Under the pieces are notes generated by a model that worked only from the letters and a program-made list of their open reading frames with translations, was not told where the DNA came from and searched no databases. Positions 2,177-63,918 of a stretch of DNA of 64,000 nucleotides are shown in pieces. This DNA comes from a virus (Duplodnaviria; Caudoviricetes), in IMG/VR virus record IMGVR_UViG_3300013121_000054, positions 1-64,000 of that record; one strand, 5' to 3'. How positions within the stretch are numbered: position 1 is the first letter of the stretch; the number at the start of each line of letters is the position of its first letter. The position numbers and the translations under genes are program-made.

Positions 2177-4023
2177 CCCAGGAATTATCAACAGCAGAGC
2201 GCGCGGCGATCGCCATGCGCGAGGTCTTTGGCGAGACTGCGGAGCTCAAATACAGCTTTTCGTATGACTGCCCCGAGGATCTTGAGGGGCTGGAGCGCGA
2301 GAAAGAAAAGCTCGACAAGGCGCTGGAGGCAAAAGCGATCCTTGAGCCGGTGGCAGTGGCTGCGATCAAAGCGCGTCACCGCCTGGTGATCGACAAGATC
2401 GCGGTGCTTCAGTCGCCAGCCTTCAGCAAGAAGCCGCCAAAATCTCAGGAGCGCGAGCGCTATGATGCGCTCCTGGCTCGGATTAAGCCACTCGATCTTG
2501 AGACCGAATGGCTCGATCGGGAACTGGAGCGCCTTGCTATTCCGATCGGCACCCTTGCTGGTCTTACGCAGGAGAAAGCCGACGAAATCGGAACAGCAAT
2601 CGCAGCTTTCGAGGCTGCGTGGCCGAAGAAAGATGAGGCAAAAGACGGATCGCGCCGAGGCCGCAGGAATGCCGGTGCCAAGAAGGATAAGAAGGAAGAG
2701 CCCCCAAAGCAAGAAAGTGTCGCTGCGACACCTGGCACTTCAGAAGCGGCTGCGGCTGCTGCCTCTCCTGCTGCATCAGATGTACTCACTAAAGATGAAT
2801 CTGATGTCGCCTGGGCAGCCTACAATTTCTTGCGGGATCAAGACCTTGAGCCGCCCGCCGAGTTTGAGCAAAGACTTTTGGCCGGTGCAGCCACATCGAA
2901 TGATTTCGATGCGCTGACTTCGGCCGCTATGGATATGGGCTGGGTGCCGGAACTGGCAAGCGCTCCTGCTGAAACAGAGACAGCAGAAGCCGAGCCGGTC
3001 TCTGAAATCCCGTTCATTGCGGAGAGTAGTGGAACCGTGAAACCCGAGGAGGTGAGCGATCTTCAGCAAAAGATAGAAACACCGGAAACAAATAGGGATT
3101 TGGAAACCAAGGAATCTAATGATGTTACTTCAGCGGAGCCTGGCTTGAGTGCTACCGCGGGCGAGGGTGGAAATCATGTAGATGCGGAGGCGCTGCCGGC
3201 AGAGTCGAATCAAAAAAATATCGCGAATTCTCACCAAGACTCTGCCGGTCAGCCAGTCCAACTACCCGCAGCCCAGGTGCAAGAGACAGAGCAATATCTC
3301 GAAAAAGAAGACGGCACATGGGTGAATCTGAAAGATGGCACGGTGCTCACCGAGGAGCAGATCGAGAAAGCGAAGCTCGACAAGAAGCTGACCGACGCCG
3401 AGGTCTTCCTCTTCGTGGATTCGCTTGAGGTCTCTGCTTATGAAGACGCAGTAAAAGTGCTGACTCTCATTAAAAACTGGCAGCACGATTGCGAAGATAT
3501 AGCCAAGATTGCGCGCGACCTGATTAATGCAAAACTTCGCCTGATCAATGGCTTCCTCTATCGATTCAATCGCGGTATCAGAGCCGTGTTTGAGCCGAAG
3601 CTGAAGAAAAACCAAGAAGGGGAGTATGACCCGAAAAACGTCAAGGTGCTCGATGCTGGCGTGAAGTTGTTCTGGACAACCACAGGCGGTGTCAAGTGTG
3701 TTGATCGCAAGGGTCTCAATGGCTTCATGGCGACCTGCTCGGATGCTGTCTTTGAGGGTCTCGGCGGCACTTACGGCAAGCCGCAGAGGGTCTGGGAATA
3801 TGAGAAGATCGTCAAGCTTTACGAGGCGGGCGAGGAGAGCTTGCAGCGCTTCTTCACGAAGTCGGATGTGAATGAACTAGGTTTGATGCGCGTAGGGGTG
3901 GACCGCTCCCCTTGGACGCCTGCGCGAATCGGGAAGGAATTTAAGATCGCAAAAAATCTGCCAATGCTGACCACATCAGCAGAAAGCGAGCAAGAGGAAA
4001 GCACCAGCGGCACTGCCGCATAG
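2173..4023 (+). CDS. 616-aa protein: coiled-coil N-terminus, acidic low-complexity middle, possible Gam/Gp157-like C-terminal domain
   Basis: long coupled ORF after bet; the C-terminal helical hairpin plus KNVKVLDAGVKLFWTTT loosely resembles Mu-Gam-like proteins (weak). Confidence 0.45.
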   Translation: MTQELSTAERAAIAMREVFGETAELKYSFSYDCPEDLEGLEREKEKLDKALEAKAILEPVAVAAIKARHRLVIDKIAVLQSPAFSKKPPKSQERERYDALLARIKPLDLETEWLDRELERLAIPIGTLAGLTQEKADEIGTAIAAFEAAWPKKDEAKDGSRRGRRNAGAKKDKKEEPPKQESVAATPGTSEAAAAAASPAASDVLTKDESDVAWAAYNFLRDQDLEPPAEFEQRLLAGAATSNDFDALTSAAMDMGWVPELASAPAETETAEAEPVSEIPFIAESSGTVKPEEVSDLQQKIETPETNRDLETKESNDVTSAEPGLSATAGEGGNHVDAEALPAESNQKNIANSHQDSAGQPVQLPAAQVQETEQYLEKEDGTWVNLKDGTVLTEEQIEKAKLDKKLTDAEVFLFVDSLEVSAYEDAVKVLTLIKNWQHDCEDIAKIARDLINAKLRLINGFLYRFNRGIRAVFEPKLKKNQEGEYDPKNVKVLDAGVKLFWTTTGGVKCVDRKGLNGFMATCSDAVFEGLGGTYGKPQRVWEYEKIVKLYEAGEESLQRFFTKSDVNELGLMRVGVDRSPWTPARIGKEFKIAKNLPMLTTSAESEQEESTSGTAA

Positions 4024-61106: not shown

Positions 61107-61369
61107 TCATCAGCGAGATTTTAGCGCCCGACAGCCTGCGCAAAATCTACAGCGTGCCCAGCGCGCGCCTTGAGTACATAGAGCAGCTCATCATGGTGGA
61201 GCTGCAAAAGCAGGCGGCGCTCTACGGCAGAAAGCCACATGCTGGATTCAGTCTGCCACTTTCGGAGAAGGATCGCGAGCACCTCGACGCAGCCTTCACG
61301 GCAGCCGGCTGGCGGACGCGGTGGTCCAAGGATATTGATAATTGGATCTTGGTTGTCTATGAGGAGTAG
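61094..61369 (+). CDS. hypothetical protein
   Basis: GGAGGT RBS; probable start ATG 61103. Confidence 0.55.
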   Translation: MEEMIISEILAPDSLRKIYSVPSARLEYIEQLIMVELQKQAALYGRKPHAGFSLPLSEKDREHLDAAFTAAGWRTRWSKDIDNWILVVYEE

Positions 61370-62108: not shown

Positions 62109-62405
62109 ATGCTTACGCCTGATGAGGCTAAGGGCGTGCCGCGCCCACAGCGCGAGCAGAAGCCCAAGGAAGATGAAACAAATTGGGAGCAGGAGCGCGA
62201 CGCGATGATCGAGCGCGTGAATAAGTTTCTGCGCGATGGTAATTACAGAGGCCGCCCCTTCCAGCTCGAAATCGGCAAGGGCTGCCAGAAAGCTCGCAAG
62301 GGCTTTGTCCAGCACCTTGAAGCTCACGGCTGGCGGGCTGATGAAAAGATGTTCTTTGATCGCGGCACCGAGAACTGGGTCGCGCGCATCAAGCAGGCTT
62401 TCTGA
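62109..62405 (+). CDS. hypothetical protein
   Basis: GAGG RBS; coupled to the next gene. Confidence 0.6.
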   Translation: MLTPDEAKGVPRPQREQKPKEDETNWEQERDAMIERVNKFLRDGNYRGRPFQLEIGKGCQKARKGFVQHLEAHGWRADEKMFFDRGTENWVARIKQAF

Positions 62406-62683
62406 TGAAAGTCGCACTGCATGAGCTAAAGACCGAGCAGCCTTGGTTTAGCGAAATAGCGCGCGGTATCAAGGATTTCGAGGTGCGTGAGCACGATCGG
62501 ATCTTTGAGGTCGGCGACCTGCTGAATCTGCGCGAATACGACAAAAACTATAAGTGCTATAGCGGAAGACACATTCTGGCGCGCATCAAGAAGGTGATGA
62601 GCCATGAAGAATTCCCGCTGGCAATCCGTAAAGGTTACTGCATTCTCGGCATCGAGAGGCTCTCACAAACTATCCAAACATAA
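62405..62683 (+). CDS. ASCH/PUA-domain protein (DUF3850-like)
   Basis: HELKTEQPWFSEIARGIKDFEVREHDRIFEVGDLLNLREY. Confidence 0.85.
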   Translation: MKVALHELKTEQPWFSEIARGIKDFEVREHDRIFEVGDLLNLREYDKNYKCYSGRHILARIKKVMSHEEFPLAIRKGYCILGIERLSQTIQT

Positions 62684-62698
62684 GGAGAATCATAGACT

Positions 62699-63439
62699 AT
62701 GGGGAAAATCTTGAGTCAGGTACTGGCTCTTCAGCAAGGCCGCAAAGAAAGCATCGACAAAGAAATCAGCCAGCTCGCAACAGCATCCACAAAACTTGAT
62801 CAGCTCACTGGCTTTGTGAATCAGTACCAAGCCTTGAATGAGGAAGATCACGAGCAGTTCAGCGATGAGGCCAAGAAGGTGCAAGCAATAGCGCCAGATA
62901 TCCTTTCGCGCTTGTCGCAGCTTATTGCCGAAGAGGTGGACATCGAAGCCACCAAGGACAATACCAACTGCTTCGCCCGGGCTGATATTATCCTTTCCGG
63001 CATAGTGTGGGCAAAAGATGTGCCAGTCACTACTCTGCTCTACCTCGAAAAACGTCTGACCGCTTGGCGGGCGATCATATCGAAGATACCCATGCTTGAC
63101 GCATCGGAGAACTGGACCCCAGACACCACTCAGCAAGGGCTGTGGAGGAGTGAAACGCGCAAGACCCACAGAACCAAGAAGGTGCCGAAGCCGATCACAC
63201 TGGCGCCTGCTACTACGGAATTCCCCGCCCAGGTGCAAATGATCGCAGAAGACCAGGTAGTCGGCTACTATCACAAAGTGATTCTTTCTGGCGCACTGCC
63301 GGCCACTCGCTGGGCGCAGCTCATGCAGCAAGCAAACCAATTGATCGATGCTGTGCGAATGGCGAGAGAGCAAGCAAATACTGTTCCTGCACAAGATCTA
63401 AAGATCGGACAAGCGATCTTTGATTACCTGATGCAGTAG
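62699..63439 (+). CDS. 246-aa helical-hairpin/beta-insert protein of unknown function, directly upstream of the structured RNA
   Basis: AAGGAG RBS; TKDNTNCFARAD, VPVTTLLYLEKRL, HRTKKVPKPITLAPATTEFPAQV, SGALPA, AVRMAREQAN. Confidence 0.85.
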   Translation: MGKILSQVLALQQGRKESIDKEISQLATASTKLDQLTGFVNQYQALNEEDHEQFSDEAKKVQAIAPDILSRLSQLIAEEVDIEATKDNTNCFARADIILSGIVWAKDVPVTTLLYLEKRLTAWRAIISKIPMLDASENWTPDTTQQGLWRSETRKTHRTKKVPKPITLAPATTEFPAQVQMIAEDQVVGYYHKVILSGALPATRWAQLMQQANQLIDAVRMAREQANTVPAQDLKIGQAIFDYLMQ

Positions 63440-63491
63440 AATGACAAAGCTGTGAGGCGAAGCTAAAGCTCAATTTCAAGTTAAGCTCGCA

Positions 63492-63564
63492 GAGAGGAGA
63501 GGAAGGTTCGATTCCTTCCTCGGGCACCATAAGCCCGAGTAGCCCAGATGGTAGAGGCACTCTC
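63492..63564 (+). ncRNA. circularly permuted tRNA-like module 1
   Basis: AC3' GAGAG, var GAGAG, T-arm GAAGG/TTCGATT/CCTTC, CTCGGGC-A-CCA-TAA-GCCCGAG, TA, D-arm GCCCAGATGGTAGAGGC, AC5' CTCTC. Confidence 0.85.
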
Positions 63565-63640
63565 GGCGAAAGAAAGTTAAGTCTATCCTCACAAGTTGAT
63601 GCCTGGAACCAGTTGCGAAAATCCAGCAGCGGCAAAAATC

Positions 63641-63709
63641 TAGTTTATATGTCAGTTCAAGTCTGACCGTGGGTGCCAGCCCGCGTAGCTCAATGGCAGA
63701 GCGAAACTA
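63641..63709 (+). ncRNA. circularly permuted tRNA-like module 2
   Basis: AC3' TAGTTT, var ATAT, T-arm GTCAG/TTCAAGT/CTGAC, CGTGGGT-G-CCA-GCCCGCG, TA, D-arm GCTC/AATGGCA/GAGC, AC5' AAACTA. Confidence 0.85.
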
Positions 63710-63765
63710 TTCAATCTGAAACGTCGCACTAAAATCGCTGAGAAGATTCGTTAATGAGCAGAGCA

Positions 63766-63837
63766 CTGCATGTAGCTCAAGAGTAGAGCAACAGTCACGT
63801 AAACTGTAGAGTGCGGGTGCGATTCCCGTCTTGCAAA
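63766..63837 (+). tRNA. degenerate tRNA-like element, Thr(CGT) anticodon if read canonically
   Basis: full cloverleaf in normal order, but A33, no D-loop GG, T-loop TGCGATT, two acceptor mismatches and no encoded CCA. Confidence 0.55.
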
Positions 63838-63845
63838 TAAACCGC

Positions 63846-63881
63846 GCGCTCGCAGGAGGCTACCCTGCGGGCGTTGCTTTT
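63846..63881 (+). terminator. intrinsic terminator closing the RNA
   Basis: GCGCTCGCAGG-7nt-CCTGCGGGCGT-TGCTTTT. Confidence 0.7.
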
Positions 63882-63888
63882 CGAGTCA

Positions 63889-63918
63889 TTGACATAACCG
63901 CAAATTTGCGGTTATAGT
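63889..63918 (+). promoter_or_regulatory. sigma70 promoter with a perfect 22-bp palindrome in the spacer
   Basis: TTGACA 63889-94, 18 bp, TATAGT 63913-18; ATAACCGCAAATTTGCGGTTAT at 63894-63915. Confidence 0.8.

What the first reader, a model, noticed from the sequence alone, without database searches (positions are those of the whole stretch)
63487..63709. Two tandem circularly permuted tRNA mimics: opened at the anticodon, acceptor end closed through CCA
Seen: each module has every canonical tRNA element, but the 3' half comes first. Module 1: GAGAG (63492-96), 5-nt variable loop, T-arm with TTCGATT loop, CTCGGGC-A-CCA, TAA linker, GCCCGAG (7/7 Watson-Crick pairs with the preceding strand), TA, D-arm, CTCTC; the stem extends further (TCGC/GCGA). 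Module 2: TAGTTT (63641-46), T-arm with TTCAAGT loop, CGTGGGT-G-CCA joined directly to GCCCGCG (7 pairs, 2 G.U), D-arm GCTC-AATGGCA-GAGC, AAACTA (63704-09). The sequences differ but all stems pair. The non-permuted pairing (5' half 1 with 3' half 2) has a mismatch and no anticodon stem. Established knowledge: permuted tRNA-like domains occur in YrlA-type Y RNAs (with Ro60) and in two-piece tmRNA. Here there is no Ro60 in the window, no G3.U70 and no tag ORF. Inference: an undescribed phage ncRNA class carrying anticodon-less tRNA elbows. RNase P cutting at G1 would expose a true CCA-3' end (exactly so in module 2). Possible roles are a decoy against tRNA-targeting defences, a ligand for synthetases/T-boxes/ribosomes, or a scaffold.
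Basis: partly seen in the sequence, partly recalled or inferred. Interest (0 to 1): 0.9.

Follow-up and report, generated by a model that had tools for sequence, protein, structure and literature searches.

The report
Double tRNA-mimic RNA beside DUF7873
The two "inside-out" tRNA look-alikes are real; they are two domains of one folded RNA of about 300 bases that follows the same unknown protein gene (DUF7873) in hundreds of phages and bacteria, so this is probably an undescribed RNA-protein system built like the Ro60/Y-RNA system.

Summary
Observation confirmed to the base. Both modules (63487-63569, 63637-63713) are complete tRNA bodies opened at the anticodon, with the acceptor stem closed through NCCA. 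They fold that way on their own. A strict motif scan expects 0.06 such hits per 128 kb of random sequence. ARAGORN calls both tRNAs once they are re-permuted in silico.

They are not free-standing. They form two domains of one RNA (about 63447-63739) that also has a closing helix, tracts of ARRYUN hexamers and a stem with a conserved internal loop. The RNA follows a DUF7873 gene (62699-63439) with no consensus promoter between, and is followed by a tRNA-Thr and a terminator.

The same gene-plus-RNA pair occurs after about 82 of 88 phage homologues and nearly all of 80 bacterial homologues. Covariation is heavy: 92% of cells paired against 58% when shuffled.

The closest known RNA is YrlA, the Ro60 partner. 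The modules score 31 and 30 bits against a threshold of 69, no Ro60 gene is in the provirus, and the Rsr motif is not conserved. Even so, bacterial carriers are enriched for Ro60 elsewhere in the genome. An encoded CCA is present in only about half of the relatives, so a free CCA end is not family-wide.

This scan has flagged the same pair on other DNA (at least 112 genomes). I found no paper describing it.

The parts
62699..63439 (+). DUF7873 gene (246 aa), the conserved partner gene of the RNA
   Evidence: Pfam PF25283 at 259 bits, E 4.8e-77. AlphaFold model with pLDDT 95. Homologues in at least 355 IMG/VR contigs and at least 578 species genomes.
63447..63488 (+). 5' leader: the P1 5' strand TGTGAGG (63451-57), then a tract of ARRYUN-type hexamers with a 6-nt period (AAGCTA 63460, AAGCTC 63466, AATTTC 63472, AAGTTA 63478, AAGCTC 63483)
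   Evidence: Sequence and hexamer list. The A and T positions recur every 6 nt and are invariant or nearly so across 36 aligned relatives. P1 pairing was read by eye, with compensatory changes in many rows of A6.
63487..63569 (+). Module A: permuted tRNA-like domain with a 3-bp D stem, an 11-nt D loop, discriminator A, and the loop ACCA-TAA closing a 7-bp acceptor stem
   Evidence: Fold z -3.5. Rfam YrlA 30.4 bits. R1 model 43.5 bits, although R1 was built from B-type modules only. Called a tRNA after re-permutation.
63570..63636 (+). Linker: hexamers AAGTTA 63574 and AAGTTG 63593, the P1 3' strand CCTCACA 63587-93, the 5' strands of the stem that carries module B (GCGA 63615-18, GCGGC 63629-33), and the internal-loop motif AUCCA 63621-25 (family consensus AUCGA)
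   Evidence: Alignment A6 and its RNAalifold helices at columns 285-289/478-482 and 297-304/458-466, both with compensatory changes. The mapping onto window coordinates is mine, done by eye. The outer helix is only 4 bp here.
63637..63713 (+). Module B: permuted tRNA-like domain with a 4-bp D stem, a 7-nt D loop, and G-CCA joined directly to G1 (4-nt loop)
   Evidence: Fold z -3.2. Rfam YrlA 31.1 bits. R1 70.9 bits. Called a tRNA after re-permutation.
63714..63745 (+). 3' strands of the stem under module B (GTCGC 63723-27, TCGC 63735-38) and the internal-loop motif CUAAAAU (family consensus UUAAACG)
   Evidence: The window copy has diverged from the consensus.
63766..63837 (+). tRNA-Thr(CGU) gene lying between the RNA and the terminator, probably co-transcribed
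   Evidence: ARAGORN. Rfam tRNA 49.7 bits, with two non-standard acceptor pairs. By my reading, about 16-18 of 60 IMG/VR loci have a tRNA shortly after module B.
63846..63881 (+). Intrinsic terminator that ends the DUF7873-RNA-tRNA unit
   Evidence: 11-bp stem followed by a T tract. The consensus scan finds no sigma-70-like promoter between the gene's stop codon and the RNA. The next promoter is at 63889-63918.

Best explanation
The flagged stretch is the core of one structured non-coding RNA, about 63447-63739. It belongs to a widespread RNA family that I could not find described, and that is genetically coupled to the DUF7873 protein gene just upstream.

The RNA displays two anticodon-less tRNA bodies (elbow plus acceptor helix) on stems. 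Conserved single-stranded ARRYUN hexamer tracts flank the first body, and a conserved internal loop lies under the second.

The most likely working model is a Y-RNA-like ribonucleoprotein. In it, DUF7873 binds the RNA, and I infer that the hexamer tracts are the binding track. The two tRNA-shaped domains would then engage factors that recognise tRNA shape: RNase P, tRNA-modifying and CCA enzymes, and possibly the ribosome or tRNA-targeting enzymes.

In this provirus the RNA appears to be made from one transcript together with the DUF7873 mRNA and a tRNA-Thr. Both modules have 7-bp acceptor stems and an encoded NCCA, so RNase P could nick them at G63533 and G63679. That would give CCA-ended two-piece domains, as shown for M. 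smegmatis YrlA.

Shown here: the structure, its conservation and covariation, and the gene-RNA linkage.

Inferred, not shown: transcription, protein binding, RNase P processing and the cellular target.

My sub-probabilities:
- real conserved structured RNA: about 0.95
- functionally coupled to DUF7873: about 0.85
- direct DUF7873-RNA binding: about 0.5
- a particle that works without Ro60: about 0.3
For: Structure:
- On 136 distinct modules, 92.4% of cells form a standard pair, against 58.3% in shuffles and 38-50% when the partner is slid. All 21 pairs show changes on both sides.
- The A-type modules were not used to build model R1, yet R1 finds them.

Gene-RNA linkage:
- About 82 of 88 phage or IMG/VR DUF7873 loci have module A at +28 to +170 and module B at +185 to +430 after the stop codon, on the same strand.
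- Nearly all of 80 bacterial loci from several phyla have both modules.
- Distant Rhizobium and Vibrio phage homologues, about 30% identical, each have one strong module.
- Two IMG/VR loci (L077, L080) carry the modules upstream of the gene, and one locus (L098) carries them on the opposite strand. This points to an RNA gene of its own rather than a 3' UTR.
- Decayed gene copies have a decayed RNA or none, while a copy with a frameshift keeps both modules.
- Bacteria show no conserved third gene: 52 different Pfam families among 74 upstream neighbours.

One RNA, not two:
- An alignment made by sequence alone gives covarying helices around module B, plus conserved hexamers and a P1 helix around module A.

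Hexamers near the gene's own translation start:
- They are enriched about 4-fold at -30 to -19 across 136 loci. This fits autoregulation by a factor that binds hexamers.

Precedent:
- RNase P cleavage and a CCA end on a permuted tRNA-like Y RNA are documented in PMC4201824.
Against: - There is no transcript, binding or processing evidence of any kind.
- The DUF7873 model has no recognisable RNA-binding or enzyme fold.
- Adjacency alone does not prove physical partnership. An earlier in-scan check priced the reading "binds it and needs no Ro60" at only 22/100.
- Bacterial carriers are enriched for Ro60, so independence from Ro60 is not established.
- The window copy deviates from the family consensus in the internal-loop motifs, and its outer helix under module B is only 4 bp.
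- The loci tested were the 80 closest homologues in each collection, so the association rate may be lower among distant homologues.
- The hexamer peak at codons 3-4 may only reflect a conserved Lys-Leu in the protein.
Confidence: 0.55

Rival explanations
1. It is a true Y RNA that works with a Ro60/Rsr protein supplied in trans by the host (or elsewhere in the bacterial genome). It would tether or gate Ro60 as YrlA does, and DUF7873 would be an accessory factor or unrelated to it.
For: - Its only above-noise Rfam similarity is to YrlA, and it has the same permuted topology.
- The window has two copies of the Rsr-associated GNCGAAN0-1G motif (63456-62 and 63565-72). The first lies at the top of the P1 5' strand, as in Y RNAs.
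- 23 of 40 DUF7873-carrying bacterial genomes have a TROVE gene.
- Within one order, 17 of 23 carriers have TROVE against 32 of 98 non-carriers (Fisher p 0.0007).
- Within the class sample, 4 of 6 carriers have TROVE against 13 of 144 non-carriers.
Against: - The scores are 31 and 30 bits against a gathering score of 69.
- Across 89 loci, GNCGAAN0-1G is not enriched in the RNA region.
- The RNA always sits beside DUF7873, never beside TROVE. Known YrlA genes lie within 4 kb of rsr on the same strand.
- 17 of 40 carrier genomes and 12 of 14 large phage records have no TROVE gene. In the two phages that do, it is more than 30 kb away.
- The co-occurrence is confounded by lineage and genome size.
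Confidence: 0.17
2. It is a tRNA-shaped decoy or sponge. It would soak up an enzyme that recognises the tRNA elbow or acceptor end, for example a tRNA-targeting toxin or defence nuclease, a nucleotidyltransferase toxin, RNase P, or a modification enzyme. DUF7873 would only stabilise or deliver it.
For: - In phages the pair sits inside tRNA gene arrays. By my count, 31 of 60 IMG/VR loci have same-strand tRNA genes within 1.5 kb, and several cultured phages do too.
- The L-shape nucleotides are conserved while the acceptor sequences drift.
Against: - With no anticodon loop it cannot be a decoy for anticodon nucleases.
- Most bacterial copies lie among housekeeping genes, without neighbouring tRNAs or an obvious defence context.
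- This argues for a cellular function that is not specific to phage-host conflict.
- Only half of the relatives keep CCA.
Confidence: 0.12
3. It is a cis-acting processing and stability element. On this view the tRNA-like bodies serve as RNase P/RNase Z punctuation that releases and protects the DUF7873 mRNA 3' end and the downstream tRNA, and there is no trans function.
For: - The consensus scan finds no promoter between the gene and the RNA, and a tRNA plus a terminator follow.
- tRNAs often follow the RNA in phages.
- RNase P cuts such structures.
Against: - Punctuation would not need two elaborate domains, conserved hexamer tracts, a P1 helix and a conserved internal loop.
- The RNA lies upstream of the gene in L077 and L080 and on the opposite strand in L098.
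- Most bacterial copies have no adjacent tRNA.
- In a number of relatives the acceptor helix is extended into a longer hairpin, which does not look like an RNase P site.
Confidence: 0.08
4. After RNase P cleavage the modules become aminoacylated two-piece tRNA-like molecules. They would act on the ribosome or donate amino acids, like tmRNA or as a tRNA-dependent transferase substrate.
For: - Both window modules have a 7-bp acceptor stem, a discriminator and an encoded CCA.
- U(-1)/G(+1) is common in the family.
- In some relatives the permuted core gives partial hits to the two-piece beta-tmRNA model.
Against: - There is no G3.U70 and no tag reading frame, and ARAGORN calls no tmRNA.
- NCCA is missing in about half of the relatives, and the loop is often a continued helix.
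- Discriminator and acceptor sequences vary freely.
Confidence: 0.05

Closest known systems
YrlA (Y RNA-like A; Rfam RF02553), the Ro60/Rsr-bound Y RNA of bacteria and mycobacteriophages, especially the M. smegmatis type (Chen et al. 2014, PMC4201824)
   Same: - A tRNA-like domain entered through the anticodon-stem position, in the order T arm, closed acceptor stem, D arm.
- The M. smegmatis RNA also has a 7-bp acceptor stem, is cut by RNase P and carries CCA in vivo.
- Y RNAs also come in tandem pairs (YrlA and YrlB) processed from one precursor.
- YrlA is the only Rfam family with above-noise scores here.
   Different: - Scores are less than half the gathering score (31 and 30 against 69 bits).
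- The RNA is encoded next to DUF7873, not next to Ro60.
- No TROVE gene is in the provirus or in 12 of 14 large phage records.
- The Rsr-linked GNCGAAN0-1G motif is not conserved.
- There are two full tRNA bodies in one RNA, plus hexamer tracts, a P1 helix and an AUCGA/UUAAACG internal loop. I found none of these in the parts of PMC4201824 I read, and the YrlA model covers only the tRNA-like cores.
Two-piece (circularly permuted) tmRNA of alpha- and beta-proteobacteria and cyanobacteria (Rfam RF01850 and relatives)
   Same: A permuted gene order in which T arm, acceptor 3' strand and CCA precede the acceptor 5' strand, with an intervening loop that is removed on maturation. Partial hits of the permuted core occur in relatives.
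   Different: There is no G3.U70, no resume codon or tag frame, and ARAGORN calls no tmRNA. Scores are about 24 bits against a gathering score of 84. The modules are closed by a short stem instead of leading into a coding domain.
Circularly permuted tRNA genes of Cyanidioschyzon merolae, some green algae and Thermofilum (from my own knowledge: Soma et al. 2007, Chan et al. 2011; not read here)
   Same: The 3' half is encoded before the 5' half and the acceptor ends are joined through a short linker. Once re-permuted, the sequence is recognised as a tRNA.
   Different: Those genes mature into ordinary tRNAs with an anticodon loop. Here there is no anticodon loop at all, the stem continues into the rest of the RNA, and the halves are never rejoined in the predicted fold.
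Viral and cellular tRNA-like structures processed by RNase P (plant-virus TLS, mascRNA)
   Same: They mimic tRNA shape to recruit tRNA enzymes. The tRNA-Thr next door gives a weak Tymo_tRNA-like hit, 17 bits.
   Different: No sequence or model match to the two modules, a different topology (not permuted), and a different biological setting.

Membership tests
YrlA / bacterial Y RNA (RF02553; Chen et al. 2014) | Reaches the Rfam gathering score (69 bits) | tested here: not met
   31.1 and 30.4 bits. Relatives score 31-38 bits. At E<=1 the model also gives sub-threshold matches in 13 of 14 control genomes.
YrlA / bacterial Y RNA (RF02553; Chen et al. 2014) | Encoded within about 4 kb of a Ro60/TROVE gene on the same strand | tested here: not met
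   No TROVE match in the whole 73-kb record. None in 12 of 14 large phage records, and more than 30 kb away in the other two. Never adjacent in bacteria.
YrlA / bacterial Y RNA (RF02553; Chen et al. 2014) | GNCGAAN0-1G motif near the 5' end (the proposed Rsr contact) | tested here: inconclusive
   Present in the window at 63456-62 and again at 63565-72. Not enriched in the RNA region across 89 loci.
YrlA / bacterial Y RNA (RF02553; Chen et al. 2014) | tRNA-like domain with T arm, loop-closed acceptor stem and D arm, entered through the anticodon-stem position | tested here: met
YrlA / bacterial Y RNA (RF02553; Chen et al. 2014) | Bound by Ro60/Rsr | not testable with these tools
   Only co-occurrence could be examined. 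Carriers are enriched for TROVE: 17 of 23 against 32 of 98 within one order.
Canonical tRNA (RF00005) | Contiguous 5'-to-3' cloverleaf with an anticodon stem-loop | tested here: not met
   No ARAGORN or Rfam tRNA call on the native sequence, and no anticodon loop. Recognised as a tRNA only after artificial re-permutation with an added loop.
Two-piece permuted tmRNA | G3.U70 alanine identity, a tag reading frame and pseudoknots | tested here: not met
   Position 3:70 is C:G in both modules. ARAGORN finds no tmRNA. Relatives give only partial beta_tmRNA hits, about 24 bits against 84.
Split tRNA with an intervening sequence (5' half of module 1 plus 3' half of module 2) | The acceptor strands of the two halves pair, and an anticodon stem forms between them | tested here: not met
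   Cross-module acceptor pairing is mostly 3-5 of 7 in 49 loci, against 7 of 7 within modules.
DUF7873-associated double tRNA-mimic RNA (not in Rfam; defined by this and earlier analyses of the scan) | Lies just downstream of a DUF7873 gene on the same strand, with module A then module B about 70 nt apart | tested here: met
   Modules lie at +49 to +129 and +198 to +274 after the stop codon, within the family's ranges.
DUF7873-associated double tRNA-mimic RNA (not in Rfam; defined by this and earlier analyses of the scan) | A P1 helix and ARRYUN hexamer tracts around module A, and a stem with an AUCGA/UUAAACG internal loop under module B | tested here: met
   P1 is 7 bp (63451-57 with 63587-93) and the hexamers are present. 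The stem under module B is present but weak, and the loop motifs have diverged to AUCCA and CUAAAAU.

The most novel reading that the evidence does not exclude
DUF7873 and this RNA form a previously unknown ribonucleoprotein, found in many bacterial phyla and in phages. Several DUF7873 protomers would line up on the 6-nt-periodic ARRYUN tracts and hold out two tRNA-shaped heads. The particle would act on the translation or tRNA-processing machinery without needing Ro60. That would make it a second, independent class of tRNA-mimic RNP alongside Ro60/Y RNA and tmRNA/SmpB.
Probability: 0.3. Interest if true: 0.85.

Novelty: new variant of a known kind. Interest (0 to 1): 0.74.

Why it matters
Only a few RNA classes are known to copy the tRNA shape for a purpose other than decoding: tmRNA, Y RNAs of the YrlA type, and viral tRNA-like structures. 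Each has revealed a distinct piece of RNA quality control or translation rescue.

This one is different in several ways. It is a double tRNA mimic with its own conserved protein gene. It is present in at least hundreds of bacterial species and hundreds of phage contigs. In phages it often sits inside tRNA gene clusters.

If the pair forms a particle, it would define a new RNA-protein machine and give DUF7873 a function. It could also explain the unannotated gaps of 400-1100 nt that I saw after this gene in eight cultured phage genomes.

The enrichment of Ro60 in bacterial carriers also makes a specific question testable: does this RNA belong to the Ro60 pathway, or run in parallel with it?

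Tried and rejected
- A single-protein locus search in IMG/VR found nothing. The alignment-based search was needed.
- Fold searches for DUF7873 gave only generic helical hairpins: Foldseek against PDB, best E 6e-3, and VIA-align wide, best Z 8.1. One structure of unknown function, 3kdq, aligned over most of its length. The PDB sequence profile gave nothing. The ESM Atlas gave only phage hypothetical proteins. No function could be drawn from any of these.
- The Rsr motif GNCGAAN0-1G as a family feature: rejected.
- The split tRNA with intron reading: rejected.
- The tmRNA reading: rejected.
- A conserved third gene in bacteria: none found among upstream neighbours. I did not scan the downstream neighbours.
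- Host identification failed.
- Burroughs and Aravind 2016 (NAR 44:8525) and Sim et al. 2020 (Annu Rev Microbiol) are not held.
- Full-text searches for DUF7873, for permuted tRNA with phage, and for YrlA with phage found no description of this pair.
- ARAGORN's two tRNA-SeC calls near the integrase are false positives inside a coding tandem repeat.
Full report
**The observation.**
Module 1 runs in this order: outer stem, 5-nt variable loop, T arm with loop TTCGATT, acceptor 3' strand, A-CCA, TAA, acceptor 5' strand (7 of 7 Watson-Crick pairs), TA, D arm, outer stem. Module 2 has the same order, with G-CCA joined directly to G1. On their own, both fold into these cloverleaves as the minimum-free-energy and centroid structures. 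The z-scores are -3.5 and -3.2.

A strict pattern for a permuted tRNA finds these two sites and nothing comparable elsewhere in the 64 kb. It expects 0.06 hits per 128 kb of Markov-random sequence. ARAGORN and Rfam see no tRNA or tmRNA here. I also cut each module at the acceptor loop and closed the outer stem with an arbitrary 7-nt loop. After that, ARAGORN calls both window modules tRNAs, and 116 of 137 family modules. It calls none of the native or shuffled sequences. So these are complete tRNA bodies, circularly permuted at the anticodon position and lacking an anticodon loop.

**The setting.**
The window belongs to a 73-kb IMG/VR provirus. An integrase gene and a host RecJ-like gene lie downstream. 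The ORF just upstream, 62699-63439, is a clear DUF7873 member at 259 bits. A consensus scan finds no promoter between its stop codon and the RNA. A tRNA-Thr(CGU) follows at 63766-63837, then a terminator at 63846-63874. A strong promoter for the next operon lies at 63889-63918. The simplest reading is a single transcription unit: DUF7873, the RNA, then tRNA-Thr.

**Relatives.**
tblastn finds DUF7873 in 74 cultured phage records, with hosts in Gordonia, Arthrobacter, Rhodococcus, Klebsiella, Ralstonia, Rhizobium, Vibrio and cyanobacteria. In eight loci I fetched, the gene is followed by an unannotated gap of 400-1100 nt, and it often lies inside a tRNA array. Sub-threshold YrlA hits, and my motif scan, fall in that gap on the same strand.

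I built a covariance model from 20 B-type modules. It finds module A at +28 to +170 and module B at +185 to +430 after the stop codon in about 82 of 88 phage or IMG/VR loci. It finds both in nearly all of 80 bacterial loci from Acidobacteriota, Abditibacteriota, Myxococcota, Actinomycetota and other groups. It finds one strong module after Rhizobium and Vibrio phage homologues that are only about 30% identical.

The gene occurs in at least 355 IMG/VR contigs and at least 578 species genomes. Two IMG/VR loci carry the modules upstream of the gene and one locus carries them on the opposite strand. This argues for an RNA gene in its own right. Two decayed gene copies have a decayed RNA or none, and a copy with a frameshift keeps both modules. 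In bacteria the upstream neighbours are unrelated housekeeping genes and tRNA genes are rarely adjacent. In phages, by my count, 31 of 60 loci have same-strand tRNAs within 1.5 kb.

**Covariation.**
On 136 distinct modules, 92.4% of cells form a standard pair. The figure is 58.3% in shuffles and 38-50% when the partner column is slid. All 21 pairs show changes on both sides. The T arm pairs at 99.7% and the acceptor stem at 98.9%. That alignment is fitted to the model, which favours pairing. Two things offset this. The A-type modules were not in the seed alignment, and a MAFFT alignment of full-length RNAs made by sequence alone gives the same helices.

**One RNA, not two.**
The full-length alignment of 36 relatives shows conserved elements outside the modules.
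- A helix P1 (consensus GAGCR with YGCUC; here TGTGAGG 63451-57 with CCTCACA 63587-93) encloses module A.
- Tracts of ARRYUN hexamers lie on both sides of module A. Their A and U positions recur every 6 nt and are invariant or nearly so.
- Two covarying helices carry module B and flank a conserved internal loop (AUCGA opposite UUAAACG). In the window this loop has diverged to AUCCA and CUAAAAU.

The same hexamer is enriched about 4-fold just upstream of the DUF7873 ribosome-binding site. It also coincides with codons 3-4 of the gene in 103 of 136 loci, though that may simply reflect a conserved Lys-Leu. The window has AAACTA at -32 and AGACTA at -5.

**What is not conserved.**
NCCA follows the acceptor stem in only 25 of 51 A modules and 36 of 71 B modules. 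Most of the rest read NCU. U at -1 before G+1 occurs in 45% of A modules and 63% of B modules. In a number of relatives the loop is a longer insert that continues the helix or forms its own hairpin. So the constant feature is the tRNA elbow with a 7-bp acceptor helix, not a free CCA end. In this window both modules keep NCCA and a short loop. RNase P nicking at G63533 and G63679 is therefore plausible here. It has a direct precedent: M. smegmatis YrlA, which has a 7-bp acceptor stem, is cut by RNase P and carries CCA in vivo (PMC4201824).

**Relation to Y RNAs.**
YrlA is the only Rfam family with above-noise scores (31.1 and 30.4 bits), but its gathering score is 69. Known YrlA genes lie within 4 kb of rsr on the same strand and carry GNCGAAN0-1G near the 5' end. 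Here there is no TROVE gene in the provirus. There is none in 12 of 14 large phage records, and it is distant in the other two. The motif occurs twice in the window but is not enriched across the family.

One new point cuts the other way. Of 40 bacterial carriers, 23 have a TROVE gene somewhere in the genome. Within one order, 17 of 23 carriers have TROVE against 32 of 98 non-carriers (odds ratio 5.8, Fisher p 0.0007). In the class sample the figures are 4 of 6 against 13 of 144. These counts are not corrected for phylogeny or genome size. They still mean that a functional link to Ro60 cannot be dismissed.

**The protein.**
DUF7873 homologues keep a constant length of about 245 aa. The model is confident (pLDDT 95) and shows long helices packed against beta-hairpins. 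It has no convincing match in the PDB or the Atlas. I can say nothing about its chemistry.

**Mechanism.**
My best reading is a Y-RNA-like RNP in which DUF7873 binds the RNA, with the periodic hexamers as the likely track, and presents two tRNA-shaped domains to factors that recognise tRNA. Transcription, binding, processing and the target are all inferred. The rivals, in order of likelihood, are:
- a trans-acting Y RNA for Ro60
- a decoy for tRNA-directed enzymes
- a cis-acting processing element
- an aminoacylated two-piece tRNA-like molecule

**Novelty and limits.**
I found no paper describing the pair. Two relevant papers were not available to read. The scan itself has reported the same pair from at least 112 other genomes. 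I reached the DUF7873 link on my own, before reading those notes. The "one RNA" reading came from the notes, and I then tested it. The loci sampled are the closest homologues in each collection, the host is unidentified, and no expression data were available.

Noticed in passing
window 63766-63837: The tRNA-Thr(CGU) between the RNA and the terminator has two non-standard acceptor pairs (C1.A72 and U6.U67), a T loop reading UGCGAUU, and no encoded CCA. By my reading, a tRNA shortly after module B recurs in about 16-18 of 60 IMG/VR loci.
   Followed up: partly
window 63889-63918: A near-consensus promoter (TTGACA, 18 nt, TATAGT) whose spacer is filled by a perfect 22-bp palindrome, ATAACCGCAAATTTGCGGTTAT (63894-63915). 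This looks like a repressor operator in front of the PAPS-reductase-like gene and the DNA methylase operon.
   Followed up: no
L006:8480-8700 (G000 about 68480-68700): ARAGORN calls two tRNA-SeC genes on the minus strand. Both lie inside a coding tandem repeat that encodes (A-P-A-E-A)n, and Rfam does not confirm them, so they are false positives.
   Followed up: yes
window 62405-62683: The gene just upstream of DUF7873 encodes a DUF3850/ASCH-like protein (PUA-like fold; PHROG annotation 'RNA-binding protein'). I did not test whether it also travels with the pair.
   Followed up: no
window 61122-61225: A weak third YrlA-model match (18 bits, E 0.015) lies inside a region of small ORFs about 2.3 kb upstream. 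It is probably noise.
   Followed up: no
L012:2944-3153 (Microcoleus phage My-WqHQDG): A HEARO RNA (129 bits, the guide-RNA family of IscB-type elements) sits in the gap after the DUF7873 gene, where the tRNA-mimic RNA normally lies. This suggests a mobile-element insertion. Model R1 has only a weak hit far downstream.
   Followed up: no
bacterial genomes behind L095-L174; order and class samples: Genomes that carry DUF7873 are enriched for Ro60/TROVE genes elsewhere in the genome (17 of 23 against 32 of 98 within one order), and the two genes are never adjacent. In G140 they lie 68 kb apart on one contig.
   Followed up: partly
L013:3009-3088 (Klebsiella phage vB_KpM_FBKp24): The record annotates a 'tRNA-Sup-TTA' that overlaps the start of module B (R1 hit 3047-3149). 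This is probably a mis-call caused by the tRNA-mimic RNA.
   Followed up: no
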